This document shows, one piece after another, positions 2,657 to 49,974 of a stretch of DNA of 64,000 nt. Each line of letters opens with the position of its first letter. The stretch's first letter is position 1. The DNA is from Peterkaempfera podocarpi (lineage in GTDB: Bacteria > Actinomycetota > Actinomycetes > Streptomycetales > Streptomycetaceae), in NCBI RefSeq assembly GCF_042466665.1, contig NZ_CP162102.1:7595022-7659021 (forward strand), written 5' to 3'. Both the position numbers and the translations under genes were made by a program. The notes under the pieces were generated by a model. That model had not been told where the DNA came from, made no database searches, and saw nothing but the letters and a program-made list of their open reading frames with translations.

Positions 2657-3856
2657 ATGCGTTTGCGCTCAAGGCTTCTCGGCATGGCCACCGCAGCACT
2701 GGCGGCGATCCCGCTCGCGCTGCTGGGTCCGGCCGTCGGATCCTCCCAGGCCGCAGTGGTCCACCAGGCCACCGCGCACTCCTGCGCCACCGTCAAGCCC
2801 GGGTTCGCCGCCTGCAAGGCCCTGGTCCGCACGGATGTCGTGGCCGTGCAGAAGGCCGCCTCGCCCAACGCCACCCCGTCCGGCTACGGCCCCGCCAGCC
2901 TCCAGTCGGCCTACAACCTGCCCTCCGCCACCGCCGGCGCGGGCCGCACCGTCGCCATCGTCGACGCCTACGACGACCCCACCGCCGAAGCCGACCTGGC
3001 GGTCTACCGCAGCCAGTTCGGCCTCCCCGCCTGCACGACCGCCAACGGCTGCTTCAAGAAGATCGACCAGACCGGCGGCACCACTTACCCGAAGAAGGAC
3101 GGCGGGTGGGCCCAGGAGATCTCGCTCGACATCGACATGGTGTCGGCGATCTGCCCCAACTGCCACATCCTGCTGGTGGAGGCCAAGTCCAGCTCCTTCG
3201 CCAACCTGGGTGCCGCGGTGAACCGCGCGGCCGCGACAGCCGGAGTGGTGGCGATCAGCAACAGCTACGGCGGATCCGACGCCGCGGACTCCACCTACGG
3301 GTCGTACTACAACCACCCGGGTATAGCCGTCACCGCCAGCTCGGGTGACAGCGGCTACGGTGCGAGCTACCCGGCGTCCTCCCACTATGTGACCGCCGTG
3401 GGTGGTACCACGCTCAACACCGCATCCAACTCCCGCGGCTGGACCGAGACCGCCTGGAGCGGCGCGGGCAGCGGCTGCTCCTCCTACAACACCGCCCTCA
3501 CCTCCGCGGCGTCCTTCAGCACCGGGTGCAGCAAGCGCGCCGAGGCCGATGTCTCCGCGGTTGCCAACCCGTCCACCGGCGTCGCCGTCTACGACAGCAC
3601 CGCCTACCAGGGTCTGTCGGGCTGGCTGGTCTTCGGCGGCACCAGTGTCGCCTCCCCCGTCATCGCCTCGGTGTACGGCCTGGCCGGCAACACCGCCTCC
3701 ATCGACAACAACTACCCGTACACCCACTCCTCCTCGCTGTGGGACGTCACCTCCGGCAGCAACGGCAGCTGCCCGACCTCGCAGTGGTGCAACGCCCGAG
3801 TCGGCTGGGACGGCCCCACCGGTCTGGGTACCCCGAACGGCATCGGCGCCTTCTGA
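2657..3856 (+). CDS. Secreted serine peptidase of the S53 (sedolisin) / S8 clan
   Basis: ATG preceded by GGGAG; N-terminal signal peptide MRLRSRLLGMATAALAAIPLALLGPAVGSSQA; motifs TVAIVDAYDDP and SGDSGYGASYPASS...GGTSVASP are typical of the family. Confidence 0.8.
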   Translation: MRLRSRLLGMATAALAAIPLALLGPAVGSSQAAVVHQATAHSCATVKPGFAACKALVRTDVVAVQKAASPNATPSGYGPASLQSAYNLPSATAGAGRTVAIVDAYDDPTAEADLAVYRSQFGLPACTTANGCFKKIDQTGGTTYPKKDGGWAQEISLDIDMVSAICPNCHILLVEAKSSSFANLGAAVNRAAATAGVVAISNSYGGSDAADSTYGSYYNHPGIAVTASSGDSGYGASYPASSHYVTAVGGTTLNTASNSRGWTETAWSGAGSGCSSYNTALTSAASFSTGCSKRAEADVSAVANPSTGVAVYDSTAYQGLSGWLVFGGTSVASPVIASVYGLAGNTASIDNNYPYTHSSSLWDVTSGSNGSCPTSQWCNARVGWDGPTGLGTPNGIGAF

Positions 3857-3886
3857 CGCAACCGGTGCCGCTTCTGATCACATGAG

Positions 3887-3919
3887 CGCCGGGCCGGAGA
3901 CTCAGTCTCCGGCCCGGCG
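3887..3919. terminator. Perfect 16-bp inverted repeat between the convergent peptidase and small secreted protein genes (bidirectional terminator candidate)
   Basis: cgccgggccggagact-c-agtctccggcccggcg read in sequence. Confidence 0.6.
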
Positions 3920-4100
3920 TCCTGGTCTGCCCGGTGATGGGACGTCAGACCGTCCGGTGACGCACTCCACCGGTGTGCCCTGGTTCGTCAGTCCCCAGCC
4001 TCCGGCCGAACCCTGCACGGTGCGTGGCCGGGGCGGGCTTTCCGGCGGGCACGCCTGCGCGGTCAGACCCTCGGTGGCGCGGCAACCGCCACCGGCGACC

Positions 4101-42430: not shown

Positions 42431-42490
42431 GTCACCGCTTTGACAGGTGACTGACGCCATGCCACTGTAGTCACCACTTGGACAGGTGAC
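42431..42490. promoter_or_regulatory. Two copies of the 21-bp motif GTCACC-N9-GGTGAC (gtcaccgctTTGACAggtgac; gtcaccacttggacaggtgac) upstream of ohr
   Basis: Read in sequence; a third copy is at 48240-48260. Confidence 0.55.
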
Positions 42491-42537
42491 GCCCTGGATG
42501 GTGAGTGCATCCAGGGGAGAATCGGAAAGGCATGACC

Positions 42538-42957
42538 ATGGCTGAAGCGCACTACACCGCCCTTGTCACCGCGACCGGCGAGGGCCGCAACGGCGGCCGG
42601 GCCGAGTCCAGCGACGGTGTGCTCGACCTGACCCTGGCCATCCCGAAGGAGCTGGGAGGAAACGGCGGGGCCACCAACCCCGAGCAGCTCCTCGCGGCGG
42701 GATGGGCCTCCTGTTTCCTGGGCGCGGTCAGGATCACCGCCGCGAAGAGGAAGCTGGCGCTGCGGAATCCGGCCGTCGCAGCCGAGGTCACCCTGCACCA
42801 CACCGCAGGCGACTTCAGCCTCAGCGCCGTCCTCCGGCTCACGGTCGAAGGGGTGGACCAGATCACCGCTGAGGAGCTCGGTGCCGACGCCCACCAGGTC
42901 TGCCCCTACTCCAAGGCGCTCGCCATCCCGGTGACCATCGAGGCGACCGTCGTCTGA
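42538..42957 (+). CDS. ohr: Organic hydroperoxide resistance protein, Ohr/OsmC family peroxiredoxin
   Basis: MAEAHYTALVTATGEGRNGGRAESSDGVLDLTLAIP...C-x...C. Confidence 0.75.
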   Translation: MAEAHYTALVTATGEGRNGGRAESSDGVLDLTLAIPKELGGNGGATNPEQLLAAGWASCFLGAVRITAAKRKLALRNPAVAAEVTLHHTAGDFSLSAVLRLTVEGVDQITAEELGADAHQVCPYSKALAIPVTIEATVV

Positions 42958-43105
42958 AGGCCGGCCGTCGGGGCCCGGTTGACGGATGACCGGCCGCCGC
43001 GGCCGAAGCCGCGGCGGCCACCCGCGCCGTCCTCGTCCTCGACGGGCAGCAGGAGTCACCACCGTTGGGAAACTCGCTGGCGAACCCGGGTTCTCCCGGA
43101 TCAGC

Positions 43106-43675
43106 ATGGGGCGCATGAATGACCAACCCGAGCGATGGAGCAGGGCAACCGTCTACCCCGACATGTGGGTCGACCCGGCCGACGACCCACGCAACAGCGA
43201 CGAGAGCAGCCCGGACGGCGAACTCGCGACGCTCCAGGACTTCCTGACGGGCTATCGCATGACCCTCCGGATGAAGTGCGACGGCCTGGATGCGGAGCAG
43301 CTGGCCCGCCGGTCGGTTCCGCCGTCGACGATGTCGCTGCTCGGCCTGGTCCGGCACCTCGCCGAGGTGGAACGGGACTGGCGGAACTGGATCAGCGACG
43401 GTGACCCGCTGCCGAAGCTGTACGGCGAGAGGGACGCGGACTTCGACGGAGCCGTCGCCGAGCCGGCCGAGGTCGACGCTGCGTACTCCGCTCTGGAGCG
43501 TGAGCAGGCCGCGACCGACGCCGCGCTGGCCGAGTTCCCGGACCTGGGCGAGCGTCCGGGGAAGGGTGAGACCTCGGTTCGGGAGCTGATGGTGCACAGG
43601 ATCGAGGAGTACGCCCGCCACAGCGGGCACGCCGACCTGTTGCGCGAGCGCATCGACGGACGGGTGGGCCAGTGA
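43106..43675 (+). CDS. DinB/DUF664 (mycothiol-dependent-isomerase-like four-helix bundle) family protein
   Basis: LQDFLTGYRMTLRMKCDGLDAEQLARRSVPPSTMSLLGLVRHLAEVERDW. Confidence 0.5.
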   Translation: MGRMNDQPERWSRATVYPDMWVDPADDPRNSDESSPDGELATLQDFLTGYRMTLRMKCDGLDAEQLARRSVPPSTMSLLGLVRHLAEVERDWRNWISDGDPLPKLYGERDADFDGAVAEPAEVDAAYSALEREQAATDAALAEFPDLGERPGKGETSVRELMVHRIEEYARHSGHADLLRERIDGRVGQ

Positions 43676-45232: not shown

Positions 45233-45703
45233 ATGTCATCCGAAGAGCCGCTGCGTCCCCTCGATGCGAACGAGGAAGCGTTCCTGCGTGCCCTGGGCCG
45301 GGTGATCCTTGCGTTGCCGCGTCTTGTCGACGCGGACATGGTGCGTGAGGCGGGGCTGCCGCTTTCCGAGTACACAGCTCTGCGGCACCTGTCGGAGACC
45401 CCGGAGAAGATGCTGCGGATGAGCGAGCTCGCCTGCGCCTGCGACCTCTCCCTCAGCGGGATGACCCGCGTCGTCATGCGCCTCGAGAAGCAGGGCTGGG
45501 TCGAGCGGGTCAAGTCCCCCGAGGACGGGCGGGGCTGGAACGCCGTACTGACCGGTGCCGGGCTCGCCCGCCTGGAGCGGGCCTGGCCGGCCCATCTGGC
45601 CAGCGTCCGACGGCATGTCATGGACCACCTGAGCGGCCAGGACCTCACCCAGCTCACGGCCACGCTGGAGCGCGTCACCGCAGACCACCCGGTCCGCAGC
45701 TGA
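45233..45703 (+). CDS. MarR family transcriptional regulator
   Basis: LSEYTALRHLSETPEKMLRMSELACACDLSLSGMTRVVMRLEKQGWVER (winged HTH). Confidence 0.75.
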   Translation: MSSEEPLRPLDANEEAFLRALGRVILALPRLVDADMVREAGLPLSEYTALRHLSETPEKMLRMSELACACDLSLSGMTRVVMRLEKQGWVERVKSPEDGRGWNAVLTGAGLARLERAWPAHLASVRRHVMDHLSGQDLTQLTATLERVTADHPVRS

Positions 45704-46159: not shown

Positions 46160-46720
46160 ATGACCAGGATCGGCATCATCGTCGGCAGCACCCGGCCCGG
46201 CCGCAACGCGGAGGCCGTCGCCCACTGGGTCCACCAGGTTGCCGCACAGCGCGCCGACGCCACGTTCGAGCTCGTCGACATCCACGACTACAAGCTCCCG
46301 CTGCTCGACGAGGCCTACCCGCCGTCGATGGGGCAGTACGCCCAGCCGCACACCCAGGCCTGGGCCGAGAAGATCGCTTCCTTCGACGGCTTCATCATCG
46401 TCACCCCCGAGTACAACCGCTCGGTGCCCGGCGCCCTGAAGAACGCCATCGACTTCCTCTACGCCGAGTGGAACAACAAGGCCGTCGGCTTCGTCAGCTA
46501 CGGCGGCACCGGTGGCACCCGCGCCGTGGAGCACCTGCGCGGGATCGCCGGGGAGCTCCAGATGGCCGATGTGCGCTCCCAGGTCGCCCTCTCGCTCTTC
46601 ACCGACTTCGAGAACTTCACCACCTTCAAGCCCGCCGACATCCAGCACGCCACCCTGACCACCACCCTCGACCAGGTCATCGCCTGGGCCGGCGCGCTCG
46701 CCCCGCTCCGCGCCAACTGA
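46160..46720 (+). CDS. NAD(P)H-dependent FMN reductase (flavodoxin-like fold)
   Basis: MTRIGIIVGSTRPGRN...IVTPEYNRSVPGALKNAIDFL. Confidence 0.8.
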   Translation: MTRIGIIVGSTRPGRNAEAVAHWVHQVAAQRADATFELVDIHDYKLPLLDEAYPPSMGQYAQPHTQAWAEKIASFDGFIIVTPEYNRSVPGALKNAIDFLYAEWNNKAVGFVSYGGTGGTRAVEHLRGIAGELQMADVRSQVALSLFTDFENFTTFKPADIQHATLTTTLDQVIAWAGALAPLRAN

Positions 46721-46795
46721 CACATCCACCAGGGGTGCCGCGCGGTCCGGCCGACGGTGCCCATGTCCGCGCAGCCCGTAGAGAGGACCGGGAAC

Positions 46796-47311
46796 ATGGC
46801 ACAGCCGCAGGGTGAGGAACTGCAGGCGCTCCTGGAGCGCCAGGCCGAACTGAGGCAGCAGTACCTCGTCCCCTCCGCGGAGCGGCAGGCGAGCTCGGCG
46901 CGGGGAGTCCACCACGCCGCGTTCATCGCCAGGGACGTGGAGGAGACCATTCTCTTCTACCGGGATGTCATGGGATTTCCGCTGGTGGACCTGGCGGAGA
47001 ACCGGGACTACCGCGGATCGACCCACTTCTTCTTCGACGTCGGGGGCGAGAACATGATCGCCTTCTTCGACTTCCCGGGGCATTCCCACCCGGAGTTCGA
47101 GGAGGCGGTCGGTGGCAGCCACCATGTGGCGCTGTCGGTCACCGCGGAGACCTTCGACGAGATCAAGGGGCGTCTGGACGAGCGGGGCCTCCCCTACATG
47201 ACGGTGTCGAGCGAGGTCGCACCCAGCCTCTTCGTGGCCGATCCCAACGGACTCAGGCTGGAGCTCATCGGGGAGCCGCTGGGACACGCCCTCGGTGAGT
47301 ACCTGCTCTGA
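46796..47311 (+). CDS. VOC (glyoxalase / bleomycin-resistance / dioxygenase) family protein
   Basis: GAGAGG RBS; HHAAFIARDVEETILFYRDVMGFPLV...HHVALSV. Confidence 0.7.
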   Translation: MAQPQGEELQALLERQAELRQQYLVPSAERQASSARGVHHAAFIARDVEETILFYRDVMGFPLVDLAENRDYRGSTHFFFDVGGENMIAFFDFPGHSHPEFEEAVGGSHHVALSVTAETFDEIKGRLDERGLPYMTVSSEVAPSLFVADPNGLRLELIGEPLGHALGEYLL

Positions 47312-47749
47312 CCGATCAGGGCGACATCCAGCGCCGGCGACCCGGGACCCGCTCAGCGGGTCGCGGGTCGCCGCCGCGTGTGCGCCCGGCGCCCTCGGGC
47401 TCTGCCCGGCACGGCCGGGTGCCGGTCGTCGCGGTGCCGGAAACGCGACGCGACCGCGCCGAGCGGGAGGCGGCAGGCCGGGTTCCGAGGGCCGGTCGCC
47501 GCCCCGGGGGAGTCCGTCGAAGAGCCCGCGACTGCGGACCGTGCGGCGACGACGAGGGCGTCGGCCGTGCCGGCCCCCCGGGTGGGTGGGGAGCGAGCAG
47601 TCGCGGTCATGCCGTCGGCCTTCACCGGCTGCGGGCATGCCGGGCCCTCGTGCTGGTGCGTGTGGTCGGGAGCGCCGCAGTGGTTGGTCCGGCGTGCCGG
47701 GACTGCGGTCGCAGCTCCCGCGAAGCGGTGCCGGTGCCGGGACGCGTCC

Positions 47750-47778
47750 GGCCCGCTCCGAGCAGCTCGGAGCGGGCC
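47750..47778. terminator. Perfect 14-bp stem hairpin 26 nt after the stop of the minus-strand 28-aa ORF
   Basis: ggcccgctccgagc-a-gctcggagcgggcc. Confidence 0.5.
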
Positions 47779-47803
47779 GGTGCGGCCGGTGCTTGGCCGG
47801 TGG

Positions 47804-47890
47804 TCAGAACACCTGGGCGTAACAGCCCAGGGAGACGGCCAGGGCGAGTACCGCGAGTGACACGGCCAGGAGGGGTTTGGGTATACGCAT
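47804..47890 (-). CDS. 28-aa hydrophobic peptide MRIPKPLLAVSLAVLALAVSLGCYAQVF (single TM segment)
   Basis: ATG with GGAGAG RBS 7 nt upstream; 33 nt downstream of the preceding small ORF; followed by the hairpin terminator. Confidence 0.45.
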   Translation of the reverse strand: MRIPKPLLAVSLAVLALAVSLGCYAQVF

Positions 47891-47919
47891 GGGAACTCTC
47901 CAGAGGGTGGAGGACGGGC

Positions 47920-48096
47920 TCACAGGCAGTAGCGGACGAGCCACTCGTCGGAGTTGTAGGTGTCTCGCGCCGGATCGGGCACCGTCGCGGCCTGCTCCTC
48001 GACCATCTCCTCGGGGCGGATGCGCTCCGGCAGTCTGCCGAATCGGGCGCGGCGGGCCGCCTCGGCAGCCTCGGAGGTGTTCTGTGCAGACCGCAT
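47920..48096 (-). CDS. 58-aa hydrophilic protein MRSAQNTSEAAEAARRARFGRLPERIRPEEMVEEQAATVPDPARDTYNSDEWLVRYCL
   Basis: ATG with GAGGAGACG RBS; below the ORF-track size cutoff; found by reverse-strand translation. Confidence 0.45.
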   Translation of the reverse strand: MRSAQNTSEAAEAARRARFGRLPERIRPEEMVEEQAATVPDPARDTYNSDEWLVRYCL

Positions 48097-48239
48097 CGCA
48101 TCGTCTCCTCAGCGCTTCGGCGGCGGGACGGTCCGGCCGGCCGGCGGGGGTGGTGTGGGGCTGCGCTTTCGCGGGTGACCTCACAGCGGGGCACTCGGTG
48201 GCCCGGATGCCCGTTTCATCTGAGAGTGCTCCCCCATTC

Positions 48240-48260
48240 GTCACCTGTCAAGGAGGTGAC
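48240..48260. promoter_or_regulatory. Third copy of GTCACC-N9-GGTGAC, with TTGACA on the minus strand, about 145 bp upstream of the small two-ORF operon
   Basis: gtcacctgtcaaggaggtgac; its reverse complement gtcacctccTTGACAggtgac matches the ohr-upstream copies. Confidence 0.55.
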
Positions 48261-48498
48261 GTATGGCGACCGACTCAACGGCGAGGCGTCACCCCCCGCT
48301 CTGTTGAGACATGGGGGCGCTGCTGCCCGCGTGTGGGGGAACTCTGTGCGGCGGGCCGCCGGAATTCCCCGGGCCGGGTCCGTCGAGAACCCGTTCCGGA
48401 CAGCGGAGCTTCCCTGTCCGTCGTCGCGGCAGGGGGGCGCCGGCGGCGCCTTTCGGGCGCTGGGCGGCGACGAGGTCTGCCGCTGTGCGGGTCGGGCG

Positions 48499-49149
48499 TC
48501 AGGCCCGAGCGGCCGTGCGGCTCTCCCATGCCTGCTTCAGCGCCTGGGAGTAGAGCTCGAAGGGCTGCAGCCCGGCCATGCCGTACTTCTGGTCCAGGAC
48601 GAAGAACGGGACGCCGCCGGCGCCCAGTTCGGCGGCTCGCCGCTCGTCCGTCCGTACGTCTGCCGCGTACGCGCGTGAGTCGGCGAGGACCCTGCGTGCC
48701 GCGCTCTCCTCCAGGCCCACCTCCACCGCCAGCGCGACCAGGGTCTCCGTGTCGTAGATGGACCGCTCGTCCGCGAAGTTCACCTGGAAGGCGCGCTCCA
48801 TCAGTCCGGCCTGGAGGCCCTGGCTCTTGGCGAAGTGCAGCAGGCGGTGGAGGTCGAAGGTGTTGCCGTGGACGCGTCCTCCGACGCGGTAGCCGAGTCC
48901 CTCGGAGCGTGCCGCGGTGGCGGCCTGCTCCTCGCGGGCTGTCTGCTGCTCGCGGGTGCGCCCGTACTGGGCGGCGACGGCTTCGATGATGGGTGTGTTG
49001 CGGGACTCGGCCTCGGGGTTGAGCTCGAACGACCGGTGGACCACCTCGACCTGGTCCCGGTGCTCGAAGGCCGCGAGTGCCCGTGCGAAACGGGCTCGGC
49101 CGATGTAGCACCAGGGGCAGGCGATGTCGGTCCAGATCTCGACGCGCAT
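48499..49149 (-). CDS. DsbA/FrnE-like thiol-disulfide oxidoreductase (thioredoxin fold, CPWC active site)
   Basis: AAGGAG RBS; MRVEIWTDIACPWCYIG. Confidence 0.75.
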   Translation of the reverse strand: MRVEIWTDIACPWCYIGRARFARALAAFEHRDQVEVVHRSFELNPEAESRNTPIIEAVAAQYGRTREQQTAREEQAATAARSEGLGYRVGGRVHGNTFDLHRLLHFAKSQGLQAGLMERAFQVNFADERSIYDTETLVALAVEVGLEESAARRVLADSRAYAADVRTDERRAAELGAGGVPFFVLDQKYGMAGLQPFELYSQALKQAWESRTAARA

Positions 49150-49404
49150 GAGTCGGTGTCTCCTTGGTGGCGAGGGCCGCAGGGGCCGCCGGATAGTCGG
49201 TCGGTCCACTATAGGCGACCGACCATCTATAGCGACGCCCGGCGTGGACGGCGCCGGTGGGCGTGATCGCGCCTTGCGTGAGGTGATCGCATTGGCCAAG
49301 GCCCGGCGCCCGGGCGACCGGGGGTGGCGCCCGAACGGTGGAGGCCGGAGCGGTTGCCGGGCGGCCTGCTTGCCCCGCACTCCGTCACCAGCCAAGATGG
49401 TGAC

Positions 49405-49974
49405 ATGATGCATGCCTTCCCCTGCGGCACCCCGATTCTGGACTTCGTGGGGACCTTGCGTGCCCGGCGCAATGCCCGGCCCCTGGAGATGCTCACCTCG
49501 CCGGAGAGTCTTGAGGCATGGTTCCGCGAGTCCGGCCTTGTCGACAGCGGGACGGCCTGCCGACCGTCCGACGTCGCCGAGGCGGTGGCTCTCCGCGAGG
49601 CCGTCCATGCGCTCATCGCCGCCAGGCTGGCCGGTGAGGACTACGACACCGATGCGCTCGACCTGGTCAACCGCACGGCCGGTGAGCCGTCCGCCATCCC
49701 GCAACTCACCGCGGAAGGGCGCCGGGTCCAGGCGACCCCAGAGCAGGCCCTGTCCTCACTCGCCCGCCAGGCCATCGACGTGCTCAGCGGACCGGAGGGG
49801 TCGCTGCTCAAGGAGTGCAGCCGGCCCGAGTGCACACAGATCTACCTGGACCGGTCGCGCGGTGGGCGGCGGGAGTGGTGCGCCATGGACCCGTGCGGAA
49901 ACAGGGTCAAGGCCGCCGCCTACCGCGCCCGCAAGCGGGCGAGCACATCGGCTCCTTCGGTGGCGGCTCGGTAG
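49405..49974 (+). CDS. ABATE + CGNR zinc-finger domain protein
   Basis: C-terminal CSRPECTQIYLDRSRGGRREWCAMDPCGNRVKAAAYRARKR. Confidence 0.65.
   Translation: MMHAFPCGTPILDFVGTLRARRNARPLEMLTSPESLEAWFRESGLVDSGTACRPSDVAEAVALREAVHALIAARLAGEDYDTDALDLVNRTAGEPSAIPQLTAEGRRVQATPEQALSSLARQAIDVLSGPEGSLLKECSRPECTQIYLDRSRGGRREWCAMDPCGNRVKAAAYRARKRASTSAPSVAAR

What the first reader, a model, noticed from the sequence alone, without database searches (positions are those of the whole stretch)
47750..48260. Compact unannotated minus-strand operon: a 58-aa hydrophilic protein and a 28-aa hydrophobic peptide with strong RBSs, a promoter and a perfect terminator
Two tiny ORFs lie 26 nt apart. The first encodes MRSAQNTSEAAEAARRARFGRLPERIRPEEMVEEQAATVPDPARDTYNSDEWLVRYCL behind a GAGGAGACG RBS. 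The second encodes MRIPKPLLAVSLAVLALAVSLGCYAQVF behind a GGAGAG RBS. They sit between a TTGACA-containing operator upstream and a perfect 14-bp-stem hairpin 26 nt after the stop. Neither ORF is long enough to appear in standard annotation. A hydrophilic small protein followed by a single-TM peptide resembles small toxin/antitoxin or membrane stress-peptide pairs, and the shared operator with ohr suggests a redox-stress role. I do not recognise either product.
Basis: partly seen in the sequence, partly recalled or inferred. Interest (0 to 1): 0.6.

Follow-up and report, generated by a model that had tools for sequence, protein, structure and literature searches.

The report
Peroxide-regulon small protein plus membrane micropeptide
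Two tiny genes, a 58-residue soluble protein and a never-annotated 28-residue membrane peptide, are real and conserved across actinomycetes, and they share a promoter-operator with the peroxide-detoxifying gene ohr, an operator that most likely belongs to an uncharacterised zinc-finger regulator.

Summary
Both ORFs exist almost as described, on the minus strand. ORF1 is 47920-48096 and ORF2 is 47804-47890. There are small numerical slips: the gap is 29 nt, not 26, and the terminator stem is 15 bp, not 14.

ORF1 is a conserved orphan family with no Pfam or NCBIfam match. It has 152 hits and 108 clusters at 50% identity, all small proteins. NCBI already annotates it as "hypothetical protein", so it is not unannotated.

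ORF2 follows ORF1 in 17 of 83 loci from three actinomycete families. Length, RBS, stop codon and an invariant Cys in ...[GAS]C[FYL]xQVF are conserved. Ten exact ORF2 sequences were absent from a 15-billion-protein collection.

GTCACC-N3-TTGACA-GGTGAC occurs 5 times in the window (0.17 expected). It sits at ORF1, twice at ohr-mst, and directly against the start codon of an ABATE/zf-CGNR gene. That last junction is conserved in 17 of 17 orthologues, so the CGNR protein is inferred to be the autoregulated repressor.

In Nonomuraea, ORF1-ORF2 is translationally coupled to ohr.

Verdict: a real small-protein operon in a peroxide/electrophile stress regulon. The toxin-antitoxin reading is unsupported. 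The biochemical role is unknown.

The parts
48240..48260 (-). 21-bp operator GTCACCTCCTTGACAGGTGAC (minus-strand reading). Its spacer carries the -35 TTGACA (48251-48246).
   Evidence: The same site type occurs 5 times in the window against 0.17 expected. It is conserved upstream of ORF1 in other genera.
48223..48228 (-). -10-like hexamer CACTCT, 17 nt after TTGACA. The predicted transcription start is about 48216.
   Evidence: Read from the sequence. The same TTGACA-17/18-CAnnnT layout is seen at ohr (CACTGT) and at orthologous promoters. The transcription start is inferred, not measured.
48105..48110 (-). Ribosome-binding site GAGGAG of ORF1
   Evidence: GAGGAGACGATGC is conserved in L003, L004, L013, L101 and L102.
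47920..48096 (-). ORF1: 58-aa hydrophilic protein of a conserved orphan family (core RFGxLPERI..ED.VEE...PDPA..Y..DEWLVRYCL)
   Evidence: 152 homologues and 108 clusters at 50% identity, all small proteins. The 41-codon core has the same length in 82 of 83 loci. Substitutions by codon position are 24772:20084:47902. AF2 gives pLDDT 79 with helices 2-19, 42-45 and 49-57.
47896..47901 (-). Ribosome-binding site GGAGAG of ORF2
   Evidence: A GGAGG-like site lies 5-9 nt before the start codon in 13 of the 15 ORF2 loci then known; the exceptions are weaker, GGGGA in L045 and GAGG 5 nt before the start in L047.
47804..47890 (-). ORF2: 28-aa hydrophobic peptide MRIPKPLLAVSLAVLALAVSLGCYAQVF, a single predicted membrane helix with a conserved C-terminal motif
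   Evidence: Present directly after ORF1 in 17 of 83 loci. C23 is invariant, P4 and Q26 are present in 16 of 17, and TGA is the stop in 17 of 17. Conserved residues show synonymous codon variation.
47748..47780 (-). Terminator-like hairpin with a perfect 15-bp stem and a 3-nt loop
   Evidence: dG -45.7 kcal/mol, z -3.9. Strong hairpins follow ORF2 in most other loci.
49384..49404 (+). Operator copy GTCACCAGCCAAGATGGTGAC that ends at the base before the ATG of the ABATE/zf-CGNR gene
   Evidence: The operator-start-codon junction is conserved in 17 of 17 CGNR orthologues.
49405..49974 (+). ABATE + zf-CGNR zinc-finger protein, the inferred repressor of the regulon
   Evidence: Pfam PF07336 (2e-29) and PF11706 (5.5e-18). 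An orthologue lies within 4 kb of ORF1 in 12 other loci.
48499..49149 (-). DsbA/FrnE-like thiol-disulfide oxidoreductase between the CGNR gene and ORF1. It may be co-regulated from the 49384 site.
   Evidence: Pfam DSBA 6e-34. The gene is absent at this position in the closest relative L001. Co-regulation is inferred only.
42431..42490 (+). Two operator copies at the ohr promoter. One (42431-42451) carries the -35 TTGACA. The other (42470-42490) lies just after the -10 CACTGT.
   Evidence: The same tandem layout, about 40 bp apart, occurs in L005, L008, L010, L017, L038, L055, L066 and L079.
42532..43675 (+). ohr (OsmC/Ohr family, 42532-42957) followed by a mycothiol S-transferase gene (42986-43675). 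Both are co-regulated with ORF1-ORF2.
   Evidence: Pfam OsmC 2.6e-14 and MST 2.5e-37. The CPYS motif was found.

Best explanation
The locus is a real bicistronic operon. A sigma-70-type promoter (TTGACA-17-CACTCT) is overlapped at its -35 by a 21-bp operator, GTCACC-N9-GGTGAC. The same operator controls ohr-mst and sits directly against the start codon of an ABATE/zf-CGNR zinc-finger gene.

Inferred mechanism of control: the CGNR protein is an autoregulated repressor. Under organic-peroxide or electrophile stress it leaves the operators. An mRNA of about 470 nt, from roughly 48216 to the hairpin at 47748, is then made and terminated.

The mRNA encodes two products. ORF1 is a cytoplasmic 58-aa protein that is largely extended, with a basic N-terminal helix and a C-terminal amphipathic helix DEWLVRYCL. 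ORF2 is a 28-aa N-in/C-out single-helix membrane micropeptide with an invariant Cys near the outer face.

ORF1 is the core component, since it is often found alone. ORF2 is an optional membrane partner.

Most likely role (inferred, with low certainty on detail): an accessory module of the Ohr-centred defence against lipid or organic hydroperoxides and electrophiles. ORF1 would act as an adaptor or modulator, and ORF2 would tie that activity to the membrane.

Shown here: that both are coding, that both are conserved, that the operator is shared, and the linkage to ohr and to the CGNR gene.

Inferred: the identity of the repressor, the inducing signal, the membrane topology and the biochemical role.
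For: Coding status of ORF1:
- 152 homologues in Streptomyces, Nonomuraea, Micromonospora and Catellatospora.
- 108 clusters at 50% identity, all 39-117 aa apart from one spurious repeat protein.
- Third-position-biased substitution, 24772:20084:47902.

Coding status of ORF2:
- The same position, length (28-29 aa), TGA stop and C-terminal motif recur in 17 loci from Streptomycetaceae, Streptosporangiaceae and Micromonosporaceae. A GGAGG-like RBS precedes the start in 13 of the 15 loci where it was read.

Operator:
- 5 copies in the window against 0.17 expected.
- The core TCACC-N9-GGTGA occurs 49 times in 663 kb of ORF1 loci against 0.65 in shuffles. Thirty of these lie within 700 nt upstream of ORF1.
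- An operator is present in 11 of 17 ORF2-containing loci against 9 of 66 without ORF2 (Fisher p = 6e-5).
- L001 carries a symmetric variant, ATCACC...GGTGAT, that keeps the palindrome.

Link to ohr:
- In four Nonomuraea loci that carry ORF2 (L005, L055, L066, L079) the ohr stop codon and the ORF1 start are 1 nt apart (TGAgATG) and ORF2 follows. L017 (N. jabiensis) also has ohr directly upstream of ORF1, but its junction was not read and ORF2 is absent.
- L045 has an Ohr-like gene upstream of ORF1.
- L038 packs CGNR > ORF1-ORF2 < ohr with six operators.

Identity of the regulator:
- A CGNR orthologue lies within 4 kb of ORF1 in 12 loci, whereas the LysR gene is found only in the nearest relative.
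- The operator ends at the base before the start codon in 17 of 17 CGNR orthologues. Five of these were chosen without reference to ORF1, from Jiangella, Amycolatopsis, Actinoallomurus, Herbiconiux and Streptomyces.
- A divergent ORF1-family member (43% identity, L107) also sits with a CGNR gene and operator variants.

Membrane peptide:
- Maximum 19-residue Kyte-Doolittle score of 1.96-2.71 in all 17 ORF2 sequences. The N-terminal M-R/K-x-P-K is positively charged.
Against: - No expression, translation or binding data exist for any part.
- The loci are phylogenetically related, so the counts and the Fisher p overstate independence.
- Seven of the 17 ORF2-containing loci show no operator. Several of these (L002, L003, L004, L013, L101) sit after an NmrA-like gene instead.
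- Many Streptomyces ORF1 genes have other upstream motifs, including an ECF-type GGAAC-N16-19-CGTT in 13 loci. Regulation is therefore not uniform.
- A LysR gene lies divergent to ohr in the window and could bind there instead.
- The window's ORF1 promoter has a single operator, with no second downstream site.
- The C-terminal Cys of ORF1 is lost in divergent members, and in L102, which still has ORF2. A Cys-based role for ORF1 is therefore unlikely to be general.
- The AF2 model has pTM 0.29 and no fold match. It gives no functional lead.
- Nothing tested here shows that ORF1 and ORF2 interact.
Confidence: 0.6

Rival explanations
1. Toxin-antitoxin pair. ORF2 would be a small hydrophobic membrane toxin and ORF1 its protein antidote, or the reverse.
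For: - The size and hydrophobicity of ORF2 resemble type I toxins.
- The two genes are tightly linked. In every sampled locus ORF2 occurs only directly after ORF1.
- Antitoxin-only loci would be tolerated, which fits ORF1 occurring alone.
Against: - No match to TA or defence models in Pfam, NCBIfam, PADLOC or PHROGs.
- ORF1 is alone in 66 of 83 loci and is strongly conserved there. An orphan antitoxin would not be expected to stay conserved.
- In Nonomuraea the pair is translationally coupled to a housekeeping detoxification gene.
- Expression is set by a stress operator shared with ohr, not by autoregulation through the pair's own products.
- No antisense RNA was detected.
Confidence: 0.07
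2. ORF2 is a lipoprotein precursor. Lgt and Lsp would process it at Cys23 to give a lipid-anchored hexapeptide, C[FYL]xQVF, on the outer face of the membrane. ORF1 would be an unrelated or regulatory co-transcribed protein.
For: - Cys23 is invariant in 17 of 17 sequences.
- The residue before it is only G, A or S in 17 of 17.
- There is a K/R-containing n-region and an uncharged h-region.
- The permissive PROSITE lipobox rule is met in 15 of 17.
Against: - The classic lipobox [LVI][ASTVI][GAS]C is met in 0 of 17.
- The G+LPPv2 pattern is met in only 7 of 17. Position -2 is usually a bulky L, F, V or I and position -3 is small.
- The small residues also fit a small-xxx-small helix-packing motif (A18xxx[GAS]22).
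- A six-residue mature lipoprotein has no precedent that I know of (from memory).
Confidence: 0.15
3. ORF1, with or without ORF2, is a regulatory partner of the CGNR repressor, acting as anti-repressor, co-sensor or feedback modulator, rather than a helper of Ohr.
For: - ORF1-family genes lie next to CGNR genes in 12 or more loci. They are divergent in L001 and L071 and tandem in L038 and L102.
- This linkage persists for a 43%-identical paralogue in L107.
- ORF1 is predicted to be extended and probably folds on a partner.
Against: - Most ORF1 loci have no CGNR gene within 4 kb.
- Some ORF1 genes carry ECF-type promoters instead.
- In Nonomuraea ORF1 is coupled to ohr, not to the regulator.
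- No interaction was tested.
Confidence: 0.15
4. The operator belongs to another regulator, such as the LysR-type protein divergent from ohr or a MarR/OhrR-type protein. Its position at the CGNR start would then mean only that CGNR is one more target.
For: - A LysR gene (41090 to about 42010, minus strand) is divergent from ohr in the window, and a MarR gene lies at 45233-45703.
- Ohr genes are classically controlled by OhrR (from memory).
Against: - LysR and MarR orthologues are found only in the nearest relatives L001 and L002.
- The operator-start-codon junction is conserved in 17 of 17 CGNR genes from seven or more genera.
- The site is not the AT-rich OhrR box (from memory).
Confidence: 0.15

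Closest known systems
Stress-induced single-helix membrane micropeptides of enterobacteria (for example MgtS, AcrZ, CydX, KdpF)
   Same: ORF2 is under 50 aa, has one predicted membrane helix and a positively charged N-terminus, is expressed from a stress-controlled promoter, and is missed by annotation.
   Different: There is no sequence relation. No membrane complex or transporter is encoded next to it. It is always paired with an upstream soluble 58-aa protein. It has an invariant Cys and a conserved C-terminal CFAQVF motif.
Ohr/OhrR organic hydroperoxide resistance system
   Same: The operon shares its promoter-operator with an ohr gene in the window. In Nonomuraea it is fused into the ohr operon.
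   Different: The operator is GC-rich, GTCACC-N9-GGTGAC, and tracks an ABATE/zf-CGNR gene rather than a MarR-type OhrR. No small-protein partner of Ohr has been described, as far as I know (from memory). Literature searches found none.
ABATE/zf-CGNR proteins (Pfam PF07336/PF11706; Jann_2411 structure, PMC2954205)
   Same: The linked regulator has both domains. The structure paper proposed a dimeric DNA-binding, stress-related regulator, which fits a palindromic operator.
   Different: The searchable literature reports no operator, regulon or signal for this family. The operator, the leaderless autoregulated layout and the targets (ohr, glyoxalase, ORF1-ORF2) are inferred here.
Entericidin EcnA/EcnB (pair of small lipoproteins, antidote and toxin)
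   Same: Two adjacent tiny genes, one giving a Cys-containing signal-peptide-like product. Expression is stress-linked (from memory).
   Different: ORF1 has no signal peptide or lipobox. The ORF2 lipobox is non-canonical and would leave only six mature residues. There is no sequence similarity.

Membership tests
Toxin-antitoxin module (type I or II) | Sequence membership in a known toxin or antitoxin family | tested here: not met
   No hits in Pfam, NCBIfam, PADLOC or PHROGs at meaningful E-values.
Toxin-antitoxin module (type I or II) | Obligate pairing of the two genes | tested here: not met
   ORF1 occurs without ORF2 in 66 of 83 loci and is still under purifying selection there. ORF2 was never seen without ORF1, but only loci centred on ORF1 were sampled.
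Toxin-antitoxin module (type I or II) | Antisense RNA (type I) or autoregulation by the pair (type II) | tested here: not met
   The only Rfam match is PtaRNA1 at 24.4 bits against a gathering score of 47, and it lies on the palindromic operator. The operator is shared with ohr and a CGNR gene.
Toxin-antitoxin module (type I or II) | Growth arrest or membrane damage on toxin expression | not testable with these tools
   Needs inducible expression of ORF2.
Bacterial lipoprotein (Lgt/Lsp substrate) | n-region with K/R, uncharged h-region, and Cys at position 15-35 | tested here: met
   Cys is at position 23 or 24 in 17 of 17. K or R lies in the first seven residues in 16 of 17.
Bacterial lipoprotein (Lgt/Lsp substrate) | Canonical lipobox [LVI][ASTVI][GAS]C | tested here: not met
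   0 of 17 match. G+LPPv2 matches 7 of 17 and the permissive PROSITE rule 15 of 17. The overall lipoprotein call stays inconclusive.
Bacterial lipoprotein (Lgt/Lsp substrate) | Lipid modification and Lsp cleavage | not testable with these tools
   Needs globomycin treatment, palmitate labelling or mass spectrometry.
Single-pass membrane micropeptide | One hydrophobic stretch long enough to span the bilayer, with flanking charge asymmetry | tested here: met
   The best 19-residue Kyte-Doolittle mean is 1.96-2.71 in 17 of 17. Positive charges occur only at the N-terminus.
Single-pass membrane micropeptide | Membership in a named family (KdpF, CydX, AcrZ and others) | tested here: not met
   No Pfam or NCBIfam match. 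The only hit is LsoB_effector at E = 0.06, 14 bits against a cutoff of 60.
RiPP precursor peptide | Conserved neighbouring maturation enzyme(s) | tested here: not met
   Clustering all high-GC3 ORFs from 81 loci gave no gene family that accompanies ORF1 or ORF2 throughout. The neighbours differ by clade.
OhrR (MarR-type) regulon | Adjacent ohrR gene and an AT-rich inverted-repeat operator | tested here: not met
   The operator is GTCACC-N9-GGTGAC. The MarR gene at 45233 is conserved only in the nearest relatives. The OhrR box sequence is recalled from memory.
Regulon of an ABATE/zf-CGNR regulator (defined here) | The operator found at the regulator's own gene is also present at the target promoter | tested here: met
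   The sites at 48240-48260 (ORF1) and 49384-49404 (CGNR start) share both half-sites. The junction with the start codon is conserved in 17 of 17 orthologues.
Regulon of an ABATE/zf-CGNR regulator (defined here) | Physical binding and in vivo derepression | not testable with these tools
   Needs EMSA or ChIP and a regulator knockout.

The most novel reading that the evidence does not exclude
ORF2 is matured by the lipoprotein pathway into a diacylglyceryl-Cys hexapeptide (C-[F/Y/L]-x-Q-V-F). This would be by far the shortest natural bacterial lipoprotein. It would be produced on peroxide or electrophile stress together with the cytoplasmic protein ORF1, under the first defined regulon of the ABATE/zf-CGNR regulator family.
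Probability: 0.12. Interest if true: 0.8.

Novelty: new variant of a known kind. Interest (0 to 1): 0.62.

Why it matters
- It adds two undescribed small-protein families to the actinomycete oxidative and electrophile stress response. One of them, the 28-aa peptide, is invisible to current annotation.
- It places these families in an operon or regulon with Ohr, whose physiological substrates are thought to be membrane-derived lipid hydroperoxides (from memory). A membrane micropeptide and a soluble partner attached to ohr give a concrete handle on how that defence connects to the membrane.
- As a by-product, the analysis gives the first testable operator, promoter layout and target set for the ABATE/zf-CGNR family. 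This family is widespread, its structure was solved in 2009, and no function was found for it in the searchable literature.
- All predictions can be tested directly with standard Streptomyces genetics.

Tried and rejected
- **Family and structure searches.** Pfam, NCBIfam, PADLOC and PHROGs gave nothing usable for either peptide. A PDB profile search and Foldseek of the AF2 model gave no match.
- **Rfam on 46500-49500.** It gave only sub-threshold chance hits.
- **5'UTR folding.** No significant structure (z -1.08), so a riboswitch or leader was rejected.
- **Promoter and terminator scan.** The simple scan found nothing at the locus. The promoter was recognised only by comparison, because its -10 is CAnnnT.
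- **Metagenome DNA-pattern scan for GC[FY]AQVF-stop.** It returned 20 chance hits in low-GC contigs, none with an ORF1-like gene. Whether ORF2 ever occurs without ORF1 therefore remains untested.
- **tblastn against plasmids.** ORF2 gave nothing. ORF1 gave four mis-filed chromosomes with no useful annotation.
- **Universal neighbour.** A search for a gene that always accompanies ORF1 found none. This argues against a RiPP or an enzyme-partner reading.
- **Profile search for domain fusions of ORF1.** None found.
- **LysR or MarR as the operator's owner.** Rejected as less likely, because neither is conserved near the sites.
- **ORF1 Cys57 to ORF2 Cys23 disulfide idea.** Weakened, because L102 keeps ORF2 while its ORF1 lacks the Cys, and divergent family members also lack it.
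- **Literature searches.** Searches for CGNR, ABATE, DUF1470 and COG5516 and for the operator sequence found only the 2009 structure paper and unrelated primer matches.
Full report
**1. Observation**

- ORF1 runs 48096..47920 (58 aa). GAGGAG lies 8 nt before its ATG.
- ORF2 runs 47890..47804 (28 aa). GGAGAG lies 5 nt before its ATG.
- The gap between them is 29 nt.
- The hairpin is a perfect 15-bp stem (47780-47766 paired with 47762-47748, loop CTG) that starts 23 nt after the stop. Its dG is -45.7 kcal/mol and z is -3.9 against shuffles. It has no U-tract, which is why the consensus scan missed it.
- Codon-position GC is 0.69/0.54/0.86 for ORF1 and 0.69/0.45/0.76 for ORF2. This is the pattern of neighbouring genes in this 72% GC window.
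- The organism is Peterkaempfera sp. SMS 1(5)a, or something identical at these loci (100% matches).

**2. ORF1 is a real, conserved orphan protein, and it is already annotated**

- A search of 5.8 billion proteins returned 152 hits. The top hit is identical and is named "hypothetical protein" by NCBI. The claim that it is unannotated is therefore wrong.
- Homologues come from Streptomyces, Actinacidiphila, Streptacidiphilus, Nonomuraea, Micromonospora and Catellatospora.
- The invariant or near-invariant residues are R18, F19, G20, L22, P23, R25, E33, A37, D41, P42, A43, Y47, D50, W52, L53, V54 and R55.
- An exhaustive profile search of 1.84 billion cluster representatives found 108 clusters. 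All are 39-117 aa, with no domain fusions. The single exception is a 6012-aa repeat protein that matches 13 profile positions, which I regard as spurious.
- Divergent members keep RFGxLPxRI..ED.VE but not the C-terminal Cys.
- In 83 loci the 41-codon core has the same length in 82. Pairwise substitutions fall 24772:20084:47902 on codon positions 1:2:3.
- There is no Pfam, NCBIfam, PADLOC, PHROG or PDB match.
- AlphaFold2 with 95 sequences gives pLDDT 79 and pTM 0.29. It predicts a helix at 2-19, an extended middle, and helices at 42-45 and 49-57. There is no fold neighbour. This looks like a protein that folds on a partner.

**3. ORF2 is a real, conserved and genuinely unannotated micropeptide**

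- I fetched 80 genomic loci around ORF1 homologues. Scanning downstream found an ORF2-like peptide directly after ORF1 in 14 of them plus the window.
- Two further look-ups added Micromonospora (MRLPKNLISLSVAVLALAVPIACFAQVF) and Catellatospora (…IGCFAHLT).
- That makes 17 of 83 loci, from three actinomycete families.
- In all 17 the peptide is 28-29 aa and ends in TGA. A GGAGG-like site lies 5-9 nt before the start in 13 of the 15 loci where this was read; L045 and L047 have weaker sites. C23 is invariant, and P4 and Q26 are present in 16 of 17.
- Conserved residues show synonymous codon variation: CCC/CCT/CCG, AAA/AAG, GGC/GGG/GGA, TGC/TGT.
- Ten exact ORF2 sequences are absent from a 15-billion-protein collection. 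Gene callers would skip this length anyway.
- In the other 66 loci ORF1 is followed at once by a terminator hairpin or by the next gene. ORF1 is therefore the core gene and ORF2 an optional partner.
- ORF1 proteins that have ORF2 carry R or K at position 21 (15 of 16) and R at position 25 (16 of 16). Those without ORF2 mostly have T, A or S at 21 and are split P/R at 25. This may be a specificity signature or may simply reflect phylogeny.

**4. The promoter-operator and its relatives**

- GTCACC-N9-GGTGAC occurs five times in the window against 0.17 expected (the same five appear with one mismatch allowed).
- Two copies flank the ohr promoter. One (42431) carries TTGACA, followed after 17 nt by CACTGT. 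The second (42470) starts right after that -10.
- ohr (OsmC family) is followed by a mycothiol S-transferase gene.
- The fourth copy (49384-49404) ends at the base before the ATG of an ABATE + zf-CGNR gene.
- The fifth copy (3329) lacks TTGACA and lies inside long ORFs. It is probably chance.
- Across the ORF1 loci the core TCACC-N9-GGTGA occurs 49 times in 663 kb against 0.65 in shuffles. Thirty copies lie within 700 nt upstream of ORF1, or upstream of ohr-ORF1.
- Oriented sites give the consensus cGTCACCnnCTTGACAGGTGACg, then a CAnnnT -10 after 17-18 nt, and often a second operator about 40 bp downstream. This is a classic repressor layout.
- The nearest relative, L001, has the symmetric variant ATCACC…GGTGAT with TTGACA-17-CAGTCT upstream of ORF1.
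- Between the window and L001, the conserved DNA consists of three blocks: RBS1 through the terminator (79% over 370 nt), the operator, and the 5' end of the CGNR gene.

**5. Who binds the operator**

- tblastn with the window's proteins shows a CGNR orthologue within 4 kb of ORF1 in 12 other loci. The LysR gene next to ohr and the nearby MarR gene recur only in the closest relatives.
- I then took five CGNR orthologues without regard to ORF1, from Jiangella, Amycolatopsis, Actinoallomurus, Herbiconiux and S. chiangmaiensis.
- In all five, and in the twelve others, the operator ends exactly one base before the start codon. The core is exact in 14, has one mismatch in 2 and three mismatches in 1.
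- The operator spacer supplies a -10-like hexamer (CAAACT, TAGACT or CAAGAT) at -12 to -7 relative to the start codon.
- I therefore infer that these are leaderless, autorepressed genes and that the CGNR protein is the operator's owner.
- In S. chiangmaiensis the CGNR gene is divergent from an OsmC/ohr gene that has two operators. In Jiangella and Herbiconiux the neighbour is a glyoxalase gene.
- The searchable literature holds only the 2009 structure paper, which proposed a dimeric DNA-binding stress regulator. No operator or regulon is reported.

**6. Link to Ohr and redox stress**

- In four Nonomuraea loci that carry ORF2 (L005, L055, L066, L079) the ohr stop and the ORF1 start are 1 nt apart (…AKAA-TGA-g-ATG) and ORF2 follows 14-17 nt later. 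The tandem operators lie upstream of ohr. L017 (N. jabiensis) also has ohr directly upstream of ORF1, but its junction was not read and ORF2 is absent.
- L045 has an Ohr-like gene (…CPYA…) about 120 nt upstream of ORF1.
- L038 packs CGNR > ORF1-ORF2 < ohr with six operators.
- Other ORF1-ORF2 loci follow an NmrA-like reductase gene or remnant (L002, L003, L004, L013, L101).
- Other neighbours are a pyridine-nucleotide disulfide oxidoreductase and a glyoxalase (L101).
- A 43%-identical ORF1 paralogue (L107) lies with a CGNR gene, operator variants, MsrA, a glyoxalase and a disulfide reductase.
- An operator is present in 11 of 17 ORF2-containing loci against 9 of 66 without ORF2 (p = 6e-5, not corrected for phylogeny).
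- Thirteen Streptomyces loci without ORF2 instead carry an ECF-type GGAAC-N16-19-CGTT about 85 nt before the ORF1 start.

**7. What ORF2 is physically**

- All 17 sequences have a hydrophobic stretch long enough to span a bilayer (Kyte-Doolittle 1.96-2.71 over 19 residues). Positive charges occur only at the N-terminus. This predicts N-in/C-out, with the conserved GC[F/Y/L]xQVF at the outer interface.
- The residue before the invariant Cys is only G, A or S. The permissive PROSITE lipoprotein rule fits 15 of 17.
- However, the classic lipobox fits 0 of 17 and G+LPPv2 fits 7 of 17.
- The small residues also form an A18xxx[G/A/S]22 helix-packing motif.
- I favour an unprocessed micropeptide, and give about 15% to a lipidated hexapeptide.

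**8. Interpretation**

- The best-supported reading is a stress-inducible bicistronic operon in a peroxide/electrophile regulon governed by an ABATE/zf-CGNR repressor.
- ORF1 is a widely conserved cytoplasmic adaptor or modulator. ORF2 is an optional membrane partner.
- The toxin-antitoxin reading fails on family membership, on pairing and on regulation.
- A RiPP reading fails for lack of any conserved enzyme neighbour.
- A leader or riboswitch reading fails because nothing lies downstream of the terminator on this strand and the 5'UTR is unstructured.
- The biochemical function of either product is not established by anything here. The adaptor-to-membrane idea is inference from context.

**9. 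Limits**

- There are no expression or binding data.
- The loci are related by descent.
- Multimer modelling was not available.

Noticed in passing
window 49384-49974; L108-L112 at 3981-4000; L001, L008, L010, L015, L024, L038, L055, L060, L071, L079, L107: In 17 of 17 orthologues of the ABATE/zf-CGNR gene, a GTCACC-N9-GGTGAC site ends exactly at the base before the start codon. A -10-like hexamer (CAAACT, TAGACT or CAAGAT) sits inside the site. This implies leaderless, autorepressed mRNAs and gives a candidate operator for a regulator family with no described function.
   Followed up: yes
window 42431-43675: ohr is followed by a mycothiol S-transferase gene. Both lie behind a promoter with two operator copies, one over the -35 and one just after the -10. 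A LysR-type gene (41090 to about 42010, minus strand) is divergent, but it is not conserved near these sites in other genera.
   Followed up: partly
window 48499-49149 (-) against L001 3730-4000: The DsbA/FrnE-like gene lies between the CGNR gene and ORF1 in the window. It is absent in the closest relative, where CGNR and ORF1 are directly divergent. The 49384 operator carries TTGGCT pointing toward dsbA, so dsbA may have been inserted into the regulon.
   Followed up: partly
L006, L009, L011, L026, L035, L036, L049, L050, L054, L062, L069, L072, L076, about 85 nt upstream of the ORF1 start: Thirteen Streptomyces ORF1 genes without ORF2 carry an ECF-sigma-type motif, GGAAC-N16-19-CGTT, instead of the operator. 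It resembles thiol-stress SigR-type promoters (recalled from memory), but it was not assigned to a sigma factor.
   Followed up: no
L002, L003, L004, L013, L101 at about 3700-3990: In these loci ORF1-ORF2 lies just downstream of the end of an NmrA-like NAD(P)-binding gene (…FVAA[HR]KD[LF]YLG*). In L003, L004, L013 and L101 this gene looks truncated or degenerate.
   Followed up: no
ORF1 residues 21 and 25 (window 48036-48034 and 48024-48022): ORF1 proteins that have ORF2 carry R or K at position 21 (15 of 16) and R at position 25 (16 of 16). Those without ORF2 mostly have T, A or S at 21 and are split P/R at 25. This may be a partner-specificity signature or may reflect phylogeny alone.
   Followed up: partly
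window 3329-3349: A fifth exact GTCACC-N9-GGTGAC match lacks TTGACA in its spacer and lies inside long ORFs. It is probably a chance or non-functional site.
   Followed up: partly
window 47312-47747 and 48261-48498: Two GC-rich stretches of about 440 and 240 nt flank the operon with no detectable gene, RNA family or repeat. The upstream stretch folds somewhat better than shuffles (z -2.95). Whether dsbA transcription reads through into ORF1 is unknown.
   Followed up: partly
L107 5035-5544 and 5699-6419: In a genome carrying a divergent ORF1 paralogue, an operator pair precedes a 142-aa gene with no Pfam hit, which I guessed from its sequence to be SRPBCC-like. An unannotated-looking 57-aa ORF precedes msrA. 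The regulon may therefore include further small genes.
   Followed up: no
L083, L089, L093, L094, L097 and L084, L087, L095, L099 (metagenome contigs): The DNA pattern for GC[FY]AQVF-stop hit the same conserved low-GC sequence in many unrelated metagenome contigs. The surrounding frame is full of stops. It is probably a conserved non-coding or RNA element unrelated to this finding.
   Followed up: no
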